Assembly (NCBI GenBank): GCA_038213495.1
Contig: JBBQSY010000005.1
Location: 1,742-65,741 of the forward strand
Reading direction: 5' to 3'
Length of the DNA: 64,000 nt
Source: Bacteroidales bacterium
Lineage (GTDB): Bacteria > Bacteroidota > Bacteroidia > Bacteroidales > UBA4417
In this document: piece after piece, positions 59,065 to 62,571 of the stretch
How positions within the stretch are numbered: the stretch's first letter is position 1
Layout: every line of letters begins with the position of its first letter
Translations under genes and position numbers: made by a program
The notes under the pieces: generated by a model
Told to the model about the DNA's origin: nothing
Seen by the model: only the letters and a program-made list of their open reading frames with translations
Databases searched by the model: none

Positions 59065-62000
59065 ATGGAATACAATTTTGGTGAAGTAGAGAAAAAATGG
59101 CAGAAACAATGGGCTGCGGAAAAGGTTTTTAAAACGGAGATAGTTGTTGGAAAACCTAAATATTATGTTCTTGACATGTTTCCTTATCCGTCAGGCGCGG
59201 GTTTGCATGTCGGACATCCGCTTGGTTATATCGCTTCCGATATTTTTTCGCGTTACAAACGGCTGAAAGGCTTTAATGTGCTTCACCCCATGGGCTATGA
59301 TGCTTACGGGCTGCCCGCCGAACAGTATGCGATACAAACCGGCACCCATCCGGCTATAACCACCGAAAAAAACCTGGCACGGTATCGTGAACAACTGGAT
59401 AAAATCGGTTTTTCTTTCGATTGGGACCGCGAAGTCCGAACCTGCGATCCTGATTACTATAAATGGACGCAATGGACTTTTATTCAGCTTTTTAATTCGT
59501 GGTACAATAAAAATACGGAAAAAGCTGAGGCTATAGCAGAATTAATCTCAGTTTTTGAAGCAAACGGGAATGCATCCATAAAGGCTGCCTCTAGTGAAAT
59601 ACATGTATTCACATCTGCCGATTGGAAGCAGATGAGTGAAAAGCAACAGCAGGAAACCCTGATGAGCTACCGACTTGCATACCTTGCCGAAACGTCTGTA
59701 AACTGGTGCCCTGCCCTGGGAACCGTATTGGCTAATGATGAGGTTGCCGAAGGTCACAGCGTGCGCGGTGGCCACCCGGTTGAACGTAAAAAAATGAAAC
59801 AGTGGCTGTTGCGTATCACGGCCTATGCCGACCGCTTGCTCGCAGGACTCAATACCATCGACTGGACTGAATCCATCAAGGAAATTCAGCGGAACTGGAT
59901 TGGTCGGAGTGAAGGAGGAAGCATGAGGTTTGGAGTTATTGACCACCCCCTGTCCCCCTCCGTGGATGATTTAGGTGGGGTGAAACCAGACGAGGTTGAA
60001 AAAGAAGCAAATGACCACCCCCTGTCCCCCTCCATGGGAGGGGGAACCTATCCGACAAATATTTCGTCTGAAAATCAGGATAGTGCTTCATCCCATAGAG
60101 CCTACATGACGACTGATCCTCAAACTTTCAATTTGTTCAGAGACAGATCAAAGGAGATGAGAAAAGCGCCTACTGAATCTGAAGATATTTTATGGCAAAA
60201 CCTCAGAGATAGTGAGATAGGATATAGAATTAGAAGGCAGCAAGTAATTGATAACTATATCGTTGATTTTGTTTGTCTTCCCAAAAAGACAATTATTGAA
60301 GTTGATGGACCTATCCATGATTTTCAAAAGGAAGCGGATGCACAGAGATCTGAGTATCTGGAACTCCTTGGATATGAAATTCTAAGATTCAAAAATGAAG
60401 AAATACTTGCTAATCCTGGAAAAGTTGCCCGGCAAATTGCAGAATTTCTCGAAAGGAAAGTCCTCCCCTCCGGGGAGGATTTAGGTGGGGTTTTTATTCC
60501 TGCCGAAATCGAGGATTACTTTGAAGATTTGCCTGAAGTCCCTCCAACCCGGGAGGATTTAGGTGGGGTCCTAGCTGCCAGGAAAGATTTAGGTGGGGTG
60601 ATAACTACCAAGGTTGAAAACAAAGCAAATAACCACCCCCTGTCCCCCTCCGTGGGAGGGGAAAATATCTCTCCCGAAATAGAAGTCTTCACCACCCGTC
60701 CCGATACCATTTTCGGTGCCACCTTTATGGTGCTTGCTCCTGAGCACGAAATGGTTTCAAAAATAACAACACCAGAATATCGCGATAAAATTGAAGCTTA
60801 CCTGGGTTGGGCAAAAAACCGGACCGAGCGCGAACGGATGACGGAAGTGAAGAAAGTAAGCGGAGAATTTACCGGCGCTTATGCCCTAAATCCATTTACT
60901 GGCCAGCCTATCCCCATCTGGATTGCTGATTACGTGCTTATGGGCTACGGAACCGGCGCCATAATGGCTGTTCCGGCGCACGATAGCCGCGATTTTGCTT
61001 TCGCACGTCATTATAAACTTCCGATTGTACAGGTTGTTAACAAACCAGGTCACGAGGCAACCGATCCTGCCACCTGGGAAGAATCATATGATTCGAAGGA
61101 TGGTATTATGATCAATTCGGGGTTTATCGATGGATTGCATGTAAAAGAAGCTATCAGCGCCGTAATCCGTGAAACTGAAAAACGCGGGATCGGTACGGGG
61201 AAAATAAACTTCCGTCTGCGCGATGCCATTTTCAGTCGCCAACGATATTGGGGTGAACCGTTTCCGGTTTTTTACAAAAATGGAATGCCTTATACCCTTC
61301 CCGAAAACCAGTTACCTCTCCTGTTGCCCGATGTGGATGCTTACCTGCCAACCGAATACGGTGAACCACCGCTTGCCCGTGCCAAAAACTGGGTTACAGC
61401 CGAAGGGTATCCGCTGGAAACAAATACGATGCCTGGTTTCGCCGGATCGAGCGGTTATTACCTGCGCTATATGGATCCGCGTAACGATAAGGAATATTTC
61501 TCAAAAGAAACTGCAAACTACTGGCAAAGCGTCGATCTGTATATTGGCGGAGCCGAACATGCAACCGGTCACTTGCTTTATTCGCGTTTCTGGAATAAAT
61601 TCCTTTTCGACCTGGGTTACTCGGTGGTGGAGGAACCATTTAAAAAACTGGTTAACCAGGGAATGATACAGGGCCGCTCGAGTTTTGTTTACAGGGTGAA
61701 AGGGACGAACAAATTTGTGTCTTATAACCTTCGCCAGCAATATGATGTACAGCAGTTACATGTGGATGTGAATATTGTTGAAAATGATATTCTGGATACA
61801 GCTAAATTCCGCGAGTGGCGCCCTGATTTTGCAGATGCCGAATTTATCCTCGAAGACGGGAAATACCATTGCGGATGGGAAGTGGAGAAAATGTCGAAAT
61901 CGATGCATAATGTGGTTAATCCCGATATCCTGATTGAACGGTACGGCGCCGACACGCTTCGGTTGTACGAGATGTTCCTTGGTCCGCTGGAGCAGGCTAA

Positions 62001-62571
62001 ACCCTGGGATACCAGCGGTATTGAAGGCGTTTTTCGTTTTATCCGTAAATTCTGGCGCTTATTCCACGATGCAGAAATTAATTTTATCGTTTCGGATGAT
62101 GCTCCTGATGCTGCTGAATTAAAGATTTTGCACAAGACGATTAAAAAAATCCAGGATGATACCGAAAGGATTTCATTCAATACGGCTGTAAGCAGTTTTA
62201 TGATTTGTGTAAACGAGCTTACCGAAGTGAAATGCAACAAACGGGCCATCCTAAACGACCTGGTAATTCTGGTTTCGCCTTATGCACCTCACCTGGCAGA
62301 AGAACTCTGGCAATTGCTCGGAAACAAAGGAAATGTCTGCAATGCAACTTTCCCGGAATACAATCCTTCGTACACTGTTGACAGCACTTTTTCGTACCCG
62401 GTATCATTTAACGGAAAAACCCGGTTTATGCTCGAGTTACCAATGGATATGGTGGCTTCGGAAATTGAAAAGGCTGTTCTTGCTTCGCCAGAAGCACAGA
62501 AATGGCTGGGTGGACAGCCTCCAAAGAAAGTAATTATTGTTCCCAGGAAGATTGTGAACGTAGTGATTTAG
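59065..62571 (+). CDS. leuS: Leucine--tRNA ligase with a ~240-aa in-frame DUF559-containing insertion
   Basis: [14 protein letters not shown] (HIGH), [25 protein letters not shown] (CP1), [13 protein letters not shown]; 1168 aa; TACCTTTG promoter element at 58994-59001. Confidence 0.97.
59941..60663 (+). mobile_element. Putative in-frame selfish element: DUF559 (Vsr-like) endonuclease domain bracketed by GC-rich palindromic repeats
   Basis: DUF559 core ~60103-60453 (MRK.PT.SE..LW..LR, RRQ..I..YIVDF, IIEVDG..H, D..R...L...GY.ILRF.N); repeat A ACCACCCCCTGTCCCCCTCC x3 (59942, 60014, 60632); repeat B GATTTAGGTGGGG x4 (59968, 60478, 60556, 60586). Confidence 0.8.

What the first reader, a model, noticed from the sequence alone, without database searches (positions are those of the whole stretch)
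59941..60663. Nuclease-carrying palindromic-repeat element translated in frame inside leucyl-tRNA synthetase
Seen: 258 residues separate G284 of WIGRSEG from T543 of TTRPDT in LeuRS. The extra segment holds a DUF559-type domain (~60103-60453) with an intact-looking RRQ / YIVDF / EVDG..H / D..R / RF.N motif set. It is bracketed by hairpin TCCCCCTCC-ATG-GGAGGGGGA (60025-60045) on the left and TCCTCCCC-TCC-GGGGAGGA-TTTAGGTGGGG (60461-60490) on the right. The reverse complement of the right unit (ACCCCACCTAAA+hairpin) resembles the left unit (ACCACCCCCTG+hairpin), so they form an inward-facing pair of related REP-like units. All copies are in one frame: HPLSPS x3, DLGGV x4. Established: this spacing is only about 20 residues in typical bacterial LeuRS; DUF559 is a Vsr-like PD-(D/E)xK nuclease fold; classical REPs are mobilised by HUH RAYT transposases; Rickettsia palindromic elements insert in frame but carry no enzyme. 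Inference: a REP-like mobile system whose partner is a Vsr-like nuclease rather than a RAYT, and which survives in essential genes by keeping the frame open.
Basis: partly seen in the sequence, partly recalled or inferred. Interest (0 to 1): 0.93.

Follow-up and report, generated by a model that had tools for sequence, protein, structure and literature searches.

The report
Triplex-ended nuclease cassette inside LeuRS
The essential leucyl-tRNA synthetase gene of this Bacteroidales bacterium carries, in frame, a small nuclease-family gene between two inverted repeats predicted to fold into three-stranded DNA; related species carry it intact, reduced to repeats or absent in a pattern that does not follow the host gene's tree, so it is likely a selfish element whose nuclease may be the unknown partner of the unexplained BoxC/triplex repeats.

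Summary
Observation confirmed: leuS (59065-62571) has 258 residues where empty alleles have 17-19, with an intact DUF559 (Vsr/EDxHD-like) domain. Exact contigs from two public runs cover both junctions. The end repeats A and B are not REPs: they are perfect class-II intrastrand-triplex motifs (BoxC/TM kind). The core is A-DUF559-B (60014-60490); the rest is in-frame repeat accretion. Among 41 congeneric alleles, 13 are intact, 5 relics and 23 empty, interspersed on the leuS tree, and the DUF559 and leuS trees reject each other (AU p about 1e-4 or lower). Of 53 other DUF559 loci in the genus, 40 have hairpins on both sides, against 0 of 300 controls. The same loop holds 102 of 126 related domain copies. 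Best reading: a selfish, unspliced nuclease-plus-triplex cassette that moves laterally. That the nuclease drives the movement is inferred. Against it: no co-conversion tract, no target duplication, A is never dispersed in the genus, and a dead second insert also has low dN/dS. I found no description in nine literature searches. This scan has already noted the same system on other DNA (76 notes for the ycjD/BoxC link, several in leuS); the genus-level phylogenetic test was run here.

The parts
59065..62571 (+). leuS, leucyl-tRNA synthetase, 1168 aa, one open frame; host gene
   Evidence: single copy in the assembly
59917..60690 (+). 258-codon stretch between WIGRSEG and TTRPDT (17-19 codons in empty alleles); aligns to the variable turn FPVEG-KEV-RIPVF of T. 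thermophilus LeuRS at the entry to the editing domain
59941..59981 (+). A'B' hybrid: 5' half of A joined to 3' half and tail of B; likely the scar of a second cassette copy whose nuclease was deleted between the two hairpins (inferred)
   Evidence: sequence; repeat families D1, D4; similar hybrids in G016, G004, G014
59968..60046 (+). left copy of a 79-nt direct repeat (B tail, linker, A), 86% identical to 60586-60664
   Evidence: family D2
60014..60045 (-). unit A, left end of the core: 9-bp pyrimidine/purine hairpin 60025-60045 plus mirror tail; class-II triplex motif of 8 triplets on the minus strand
60100..60459 (+). DUF559 nuclease-fold domain, LeuRS aa 346-465 (Pfam core aa 359-462); E373, D401, E412, D414, H418, D425, R428 invariant in 21 aligned homologues; no conserved start codon of its own
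60458..60491 (+). unit B, right end of the core: hairpin 60461-60479, TTT loop, third strand 60483-60490; class-II triplex motif of 8 triplets on the plus strand
60536..60569 (+). decayed B copy
   Evidence: D1, 85%; no longer folds
60566..60599 (+). B tail only (third B copy)
   Evidence: D1, 74%
60632..60663 (-). terminal copy of A, in direct orientation to 60014-60045, 618 nt (206 codons) downstream

Best explanation
This is a DUF559 nuclease gene between two inverted repeats predicted to fold into hairpin-plus-triplex DNA, sitting in frame in a loop of LeuRS, likely translated as an unspliced extra domain and likely a selfish cassette that its own nuclease helps to spread. Shown: anatomy, open frame, mirror-repeat ends, intact, relic and empty alleles interspersed on the leuS tree, and lateral replacement of one DUF559 type by another at this site. 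Inferred mechanism: (1) the cassette has no conserved start of its own and is expressed from the host gene; (2) when the DNA is single-stranded the ends fold, and the Vsr-like domain nicks at or beside its cognate folded end; (3) host repair and strand switching at the short identities shared by the hairpins copy the whole cassette, or end B alone, into an allelic leuS or a new site, with only short flanking tracts; (4) selection keeps only in-frame events in tolerant loops, so this loop acts as a sink; (5) recombination between the repeats gives tandem copies, A'B' scars and solo-A relics, and a domain that has lost its ends is trapped and loses its active site, as at the second LeuRS site.
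For: Genus alleles: 13 intact, 5 relic, 23 empty of 41; 10 state changes on the leuS DNA tree; monophyly of 15 occupied ingroup alleles is rejected (p-AU 3e-50), and so is that of the 14 54-nt empties (1e-7). Those empties share a homologous loop of one length, so they do not look like independent deletions. DUF559 clades alpha and beta cut across leuS clades X and Y; four AU tests give p 9e-5, 2e-7, 2e-6, 1e-4. G000-G009 dS is 0.42 in the domain and 1.40 in the core. Catalytic-type residues are invariant in 21 of 21 and spaced like I-Bth0305I E170/D196/H213/D222 (PMC3239194 passages); the model (pLDDT 88.6) matches 3hrl, 3r3p and Vsr. Hairpins flank 40 of 53 non-LeuRS DUF559 loci on both sides, against 0 of 300 control ORFs, and tails mirror the purine arm across many different repeat families. 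Related domains with hairpin-coded flanking peptides sit in IleRS, MetH, TGT, RecJ, RecG and others. None of 9 Y1 transposase genes in the genome has a triplex unit near it. Two or more dispersed B copies occur in 5 of 18 occupied and 0 of 23 empty genomes. E. coli ycjD (34% identical) has a TM-like hairpin across its stop codon and TMECO no. 9 about 170 nt downstream.
Against: No cleavage or mobility assay. No co-conversion tract is visible in the flanks and I could read no target-site duplication; junctions are old and several host codons are replaced. Low dN/dS (median 0.11, 43 of 78 pairs unsaturated) does not prove activity, because the dead site-2 domain has 0.075. Site 2 also rejects one of three leuS clades tested (p 0.012), so ordinary recombination occurs in this gene. 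The link between occupancy and dispersed B is not significant on independent pairs (median p 0.25 and 1). A is not dispersed in the genus. Twelve solo A or B loci elsewhere have no DUF559 within 900 nt. Only 15 of 53 loci show the A-DUF-B orientation by my loose tail test; others read AB-DUF-AB or BB-DUF-A. State keeps some phylogenetic signal (10 changes against a shuffled mean of 13.6; 1.6% of shuffles as low), and across 91 LeuRS hosts domain identity tracks host identity (rho 0.66), so much of the inheritance is vertical.
Confidence: 0.55

Rival explanations
1. An intron-less, intein-less homing endonuclease: the domain cuts the empty leuS site itself and spreads by allelic gene conversion; the triplex ends are passengers.
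For: Intact, degenerate and empty states interspersed, with incongruent trees, fit the homing cycle (cycle recalled, not from a call; data). 102 of 126 related domain copies occupy this one loop, in Bacteroidota and Patescibacteria. The closest characterised fold is I-Bth0305I.
Against: No co-conversion tract. No extra DNA-binding domain like the NUMOD region of I-Bth0305I was found by Pfam. Close relatives sit in unrelated genes (11 changes between this loop and other sites on a weakly resolved tree). Most DUF559 genes fetched from the genus are free-standing with their own hairpins.
Confidence: 0.18
2. Passive cargo: the triplex repeats are unstable or are moved by another enzyme, a Vsr-type repair nuclease was captured between two of them once, and ordinary homologous recombination and repeat-mediated deletion shuffled the alleles.
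For: Caulobacter VsrA, a DUF559 protein, is proposed as a T:G repair nuclease (PMC12907096 passages). TM sites are unstable in E. coli (PMC4666352). The genome has 9 Y1 transposase matches. Site 2 shows some background recombination. Every rearrangement in the array can be explained by slippage between repeats.
Against: Different DUF559 subfamilies go with different repeat families in 40 of 53 loci. Y1 genes have no triplex units near them. Site 1 is far more incongruent than site 2 of similar length (log-likelihood drop about 50 against 12). The active site is kept wherever the ends are kept and is lost at site 2, where they are gone.
Confidence: 0.17
3. Domesticated accessory domain of LeuRS (tRNA or RNA binding) with vertical descent and repeated loss.
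For: Purifying selection. Mitoribosomal proteins are among the next fold matches. Many hosts are RNA enzymes. The site-2 domain is kept in 13 of 13 covered members of one clade.
Against: 23 of 41 congeners lack it and 5 keep only repeats or remnants; trees are incongruent; hosts include MetH, RecG, Gmk and restriction enzymes. It may hold for site 2 only.
Confidence: 0.08
4. Assembly chimera, or a spliced element (intein or intron).
For: Repeat-rich metagenome assembly, 79% complete.
Against: Exact independent contigs across both junctions; the same insert in 12 congeners; no Hint domain in Pfam; no Rfam intron match at E<=1; the frame is open.
Confidence: 0.02

Closest known systems
BoxC / PIT / TM(ECO) intrastrand triplex repeats (Holder et al. 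2015, PMC4666352; seen: abstract, first tenth of the text, section 12 with Table 1, passages; supplement too large to read)
   Same: Pyrimidine arm, loop, purine arm, 3-nt loop, mirror third strand (class II); G/C-rich, about 30-35 nt; two types paired in inverted orientation; TTA-type second loop in B; dispersed solo copies.
   Different: A and B differ in sequence from the TMECO consensus; TMECO is described as always intergenic and with no mobility gene nearby; here the pair brackets a nuclease gene and is translated.
REP/RAYT systems (REPtrons, REPINs) (recalled; no paper on them read here)
   Same: One enzyme gene flanked by inverted hairpin repeats, tandem arrays, dispersed solo copies, enzyme subfamily paired with repeat family.
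   Different: The enzyme is a Vsr-like PD-(D/E)xK fold, not HUH/Y1; no GTAG/CGTC tag at the foot of A or B; the ends carry a triplex tail; the enzyme gene itself lies in frame in essential genes.
EDxHD homing endonucleases, I-Bth0305I (PMC3239194, passages; PDB 3r3p)
   Same: Same fold (TM 0.61, E 3e-5), similar acidic/His active-site set, recurrence at one conserved site, incongruent trees.
   Different: No intron or intein, no NUMOD DNA-binding region, no co-conversion seen, many unrelated insertion sites, structured DNA ends.
Rickettsia palindromic elements (as summarised in PMC10969869, passages)
   Same: Palindromic DNA inserted in frame into housekeeping proteins and translated.
   Different: RPEs are about 150 bp and no enzyme is described in them; this core is about 480 bp and encodes a nuclease fold.
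Vsr / DUF559 repair nucleases: E. coli Vsr, Caulobacter VsrA, Neisseria 3hrl (PMC3424549 and PMC12907096, passages)
   Same: Same family group; 3hrl is the best sequence (E 1e-19) and fold match.
   Different: Fused inside LeuRS, patchy and laterally exchanged; PMC3424549 lists the group as showing no horizontal transfer.

Membership tests
DUF559 / Vsr-like nuclease | PF04480 match over cut-off and Vsr-like fold | tested here: met
   113.6 bits against 20.6; model matches 3hrl, 3r3p, 1cw0
DUF559 / Vsr-like nuclease | Active-site acidic residues and His present | tested here: met
   E, D, E, D, H, D invariant in 21 of 21; roles assigned by alignment to 3r3p
DUF559 / Vsr-like nuclease | Nicks DNA (T:G mismatch or other substrate) | not testable with these tools
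   needs an assay
BoxC/PIT/TM triplex repeats | Class-II intrastrand triplex arrangement with mirror third strand | tested here: met
   A and B each give 8 triplets with 0 mismatches
BoxC/PIT/TM triplex repeats | TMECO consensus sequence | tested here: not met
   arms GGAGGGGG and GGGGAGGA against consensus GGGNGAGGG, compared by eye
BoxC/PIT/TM triplex repeats | Triplex forms physically | not testable with these tools
   needs CD, NMR or DMS probing
REP/RAYT | Cognate HUH (Y1) transposase between the repeats | tested here: not met
   insert is DUF559 only; 0 of 9 Y1 matches near a triplex unit
REP/RAYT | GTAG or CGTC tag at the hairpin foot (recalled) | tested here: not met
   sequence at 60014-60045 and 60458-60491
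REP/RAYT | Dispersed solo copies | tested here: met
   met for B (6 outside leuS in this genome); not for A in this genus
Homing endonuclease (EDxHD) | Carried in a self-splicing intron or intein | tested here: not met
   no Hint domain, no Rfam intron, open frame
Homing endonuclease (EDxHD) | Lateral spread among alleles of one site | tested here: met
   AU tests
Homing endonuclease (EDxHD) | Co-conversion of flanking sequence | tested here: inconclusive
   no tract seen; a small dip in the first 10 codons downstream; synonymous sites are near saturation
Homing endonuclease (EDxHD) | Cuts the empty allele | not testable with these tools
   needs an assay
Rickettsia palindromic elements / MITEs | Non-autonomous, encodes no enzyme | tested here: not met
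   encodes DUF559
Rickettsia palindromic elements / MITEs | Target-site duplication | tested here: inconclusive
   none readable; junctions are diverged

The most novel reading that the evidence does not exclude
A class of mobile element defined by DNA shape: a Vsr-like nuclease recognises its own triplex-forming ends and drives their spread, and one lineage lives as unspliced protein domains inside essential enzymes, using the host gene for expression. The LeuRS-fused domain would then be the active source of the dispersed B repeats, and E. coli ycjD the mobiliser of BoxC/TMECO.
Probability: 0.45. Interest if true: 0.92.

Novelty: categorically new. Interest (0 to 1): 0.78.

Why it matters
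Holder et al. state that no mobility gene was found near TM repeats and that their mechanism and origin are unanswered. A cognate nuclease would answer that, and it can be tested in E. coli K-12, where ycjD lies beside TMECO no. 9. It would also be a selfish nuclease that persists in essential genes with neither RNA nor protein splicing, a source of new domains in housekeeping enzymes (site 2 shows a trapped, dead copy), and possibly a small structure-specific nickase.

Tried and rejected
No RNA holder listed, so expression and splicing were not examined. A single-sequence fold was poor (pLDDT 45) and was not used; the VIA-align search did not run. No relative of the domain was found in viral contigs with this query. 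The E. coli empty site was not informative: in three ycjD-less genomes another gene follows fabI, and PMC12817139 (passages) says ycjD stands in place of an efflux operon. My site-2 labels and two rows (G002, G009) were false pattern hits; one search is the corrected set. The protein tree was a poorly resolved quick tree; conclusions use the DNA trees, which leave out the 8 genomes from other families. G044 has a long branch, and G003 and G020 are under half filled. G011 and G051 are called relics on length (over 75 nt) and faint resemblance; leaving them out gives 9 changes. The co-conversion scan was negative or saturated. Rfam gave two chance matches only. PMC9881135 lists DUF559 genes as enriched among predicted inversion targets (one table row); I read that as a by-product of inverted ends and did not test it. 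Supplements of PMC4666352 could not be read, so TM counts per strain were not compared with ycjD presence.

Full report
1. Observation. The leuS frame 59065-62571 (1168 aa) is open, scores 924 bits on TIGR00396 and is the only match at E<=1e-50 in the assembly. Between WIGRSEG and TTRPDT lie 258 residues; empty relatives have 17-19. The site aligns to a variable turn at the entry to the editing domain of T. thermophilus LeuRS. PF04480 covers aa 359-462. Contigs of two public runs match the window without a difference across both junctions and the domain, and 12 congeners carry a DUF559 in the same loop, so it is not a chimera. No intein domain or intron model was found.

2. Anatomy. The smallest alleles (G002, G047, G054; 525-531 nt) are A, linker, DUF559, B. 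In the window this core is 60014-60490. Around it lie an A'B' hybrid (59941-59981), two decayed B copies and a terminal A; a 79-nt direct repeat spans 618 nt. All spacings are multiples of three, and 16 of the 17 complete occupied spacers keep the frame, G015 being the exception. The left hybrid of G014 uses G014's own linker type, so such duplications recur. A and B are each a pyrimidine arm, a purine arm and a tail that mirrors the purine arm: 8 triplets, no mismatch. This is the class-II intrastrand triplex of Holder et al. (PMC4666352); I took that lead from an earlier scan note and tested it. The genome has 63 such units in several families, against 0 in two shuffles.

3. The protein. E373, D401, E412, D414, H418, D425 and R428 are invariant in 21 aligned homologues. 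The profile finds 3hrl (E 9e-33) and I-Bth0305I 3r3p (E 2e-5). A model with pLDDT 88.6 matches 3hrl, 3r3p and, more weakly, Vsr. The Met in YMTTDP is not conserved in relatives, so the cassette likely depends on the host gene for expression.

4. Population test. Of 45 genus genomes, 41 gave a usable allele: 13 intact, 5 relic, 23 empty. On the leuS DNA tree the state changes 10 times, against a shuffled mean of 13.6. Neither the 15 occupied ingroup alleles tested nor the 14 54-nt empties form a clade. The empties share a homologous loop of constant length, while relics vary from 78 to 194 nt, so empties are ancestral-type alleles, either never invaded or regained by recombination. The DUF559 tree has two clades that cut across the two leuS clades, and four AU tests reject congruence (the groups were named after seeing the trees). 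Median dN/dS is 0.11 for the domain and 0.05 for the core, over 43 of 78 pairs. Flanks show no co-conversion tract. An internal control tempers this: a second DUF559-like insert, without DG..H and without evident hairpins, is present in 13 of 13 covered members of clade Y and in no other covered allele, has dN/dS 0.075, and rejects one of three leuS clades at p 0.012. So low dN/dS alone proves nothing and background recombination exists, but site 1 is much more shuffled.

5. Association elsewhere. PF04480 is found in 39 of 45 genus genomes. I examined 70 loci (30 from the search, 40 fetched; the weakest hits were left out). Of 53 non-LeuRS domains with full flanks, 40 have hairpins on both sides and 47 on at least one, against 0 and 9 of 300 control ORFs. 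Subfamilies go with their own repeat types, and the orders vary; only 15 of 53 read A-DUF-B by a loose test. Triplex units occur in 81 of 90 DUF559 loci (not de-duplicated) against 12 of 500 random pieces. All 19 A matches in the genus are in leuS. B is dispersed in 7 of 18 occupied and 2 of 23 empty genomes (Fisher p 0.026, not significant on independent pairs). Solo A and B occur in 8 metagenome and 4 viral-contig loci, none with DUF559 within 900 nt and one in frame in a gene. Among the best 120 of 423 longer relatives, 102 of 126 domain copies occupy this LeuRS loop, in Bacteroidota and Patescibacteria and with different end types; 4 lie at other LeuRS sites and 20 in IleRS, MetH, PP2C-like, restriction-modification, TGT, RecJ, RecG, RsmA and Gmk proteins (host names partly from my reading of Pfam accessions). 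Short relatives of the domain's own length also exist, 102 at E<=1e-20, none above 54% identity. E. coli ycjD (34% identical, E 3e-23) has a TM-like hairpin across its stop codon and TMECO no. 9 about 170 nt downstream; it is present in 3378 of 5426 genomes. None of the genome's 9 Y1 transposase matches lies near a triplex unit.

6. Mechanism. I put about 0.8 on a selfish, laterally exchanged cassette and 0.55 on the specific model: the fused nuclease nicks its folded ends, host repair copies the cassette or end B through short identities, selection keeps in-frame events, and recombination between repeats makes tandem copies, scars and relics. Steps after the anatomy and the tree tests are inferred. 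Rivals: intron-less homing (0.18), passive cargo of unstable repeats with a repair nuclease as in Caulobacter VsrA (0.17; PMC12907096), domestication (0.08), artefact (0.02).

7. Comparison and novelty. It is laid out like a REP/RAYT locus and cycles like a homing endonuclease, but fails a defining test of each: no HUH enzyme, and no intron or intein. Its ends are of the BoxC/TM kind without the TMECO sequence. Literature searches (open-access text only, mostly seen as listings) showed no description of the pairing; subscription papers and unread supplements may hold one. Papers read in part: PMC4666352 (abstract, first tenth, section 12, passages), and passages of PMC3239194, PMC3424549, PMC9881135, PMC10969869, PMC12907096 and PMC12817139. 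This scan has noted the system on other DNA before: in leuS, ileS, valS, cysS and hsdR, with 76 notes holding the ycjD/BoxC words. Those notes are unchecked and are not counted as support. I saw only a few lines of each, so I cannot say whether any ran a similar phylogenetic test.

8. Verdict. Real, laterally exchanged, not found in print as far as searched; the role of the nuclease is unproven but directly testable. Interest 0.78.

Noticed in passing
L029 (LeuRS aa 644-734) and 12 other clade-Y alleles: Second DUF559-like insert in LeuRS after GRSSFVYRV: no DG..H, no evident hairpin ends, kept in 13 of 13 covered members, dN/dS 0.075; four genomes' leuS (G047, G054, G056 intact; G021 relic) carry both inserts.
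   Followed up: yes
G000:C110 about 924-951 (L146): A different triplex unit, whose second loop is itself a small hairpin, lies in frame in a BT4734-like/VapE-like gene of the same genome.
   Followed up: partly
G000 C17, C30, C35, C112; L002 inside leuS: That unit is nested in the loop of B hairpins, both between genes and inside G016 leuS, so one repeat family lands in another.
   Followed up: partly
G000 C60:13585-13781, C93:11318-11672: Dispersed B copies sit in larger head-to-tail modules (periods 167 and 325 nt) with runs of CTGTAACC-like octamers.
   Followed up: no
G015:C15:33999-36925 (L005, L147): Repeat-only relic of 197 nt that breaks the leuS frame into 325 and 686 aa; assembly error or a split gene.
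   Followed up: no
L114 (G005) and L083 (G017): Head-to-tail tandem DUF559 units 546 nt and about 1.8 kb apart.
   Followed up: no
L149:209-237: Solo A unit adding about ten codons in frame to a long ORF that looks like a bacterial alpha-2-macroglobulin (by eye).
   Followed up: no
L156-L158: Three solo B units on one viral-collection contig.
   Followed up: no
L142, NC_000913.3:1351204-1351760: E. coli ycjD with a TM-like hairpin over its stop codon, TMECO no. 9 downstream and a different perfect inverted repeat upstream.
   Followed up: partly
L054 (G042) and L131: DUF559 with hairpin ends in frame in a type I restriction subunit-like ORF, and at the end of a 960-aa ORF of Bacteroides salyersiae.
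   Followed up: no
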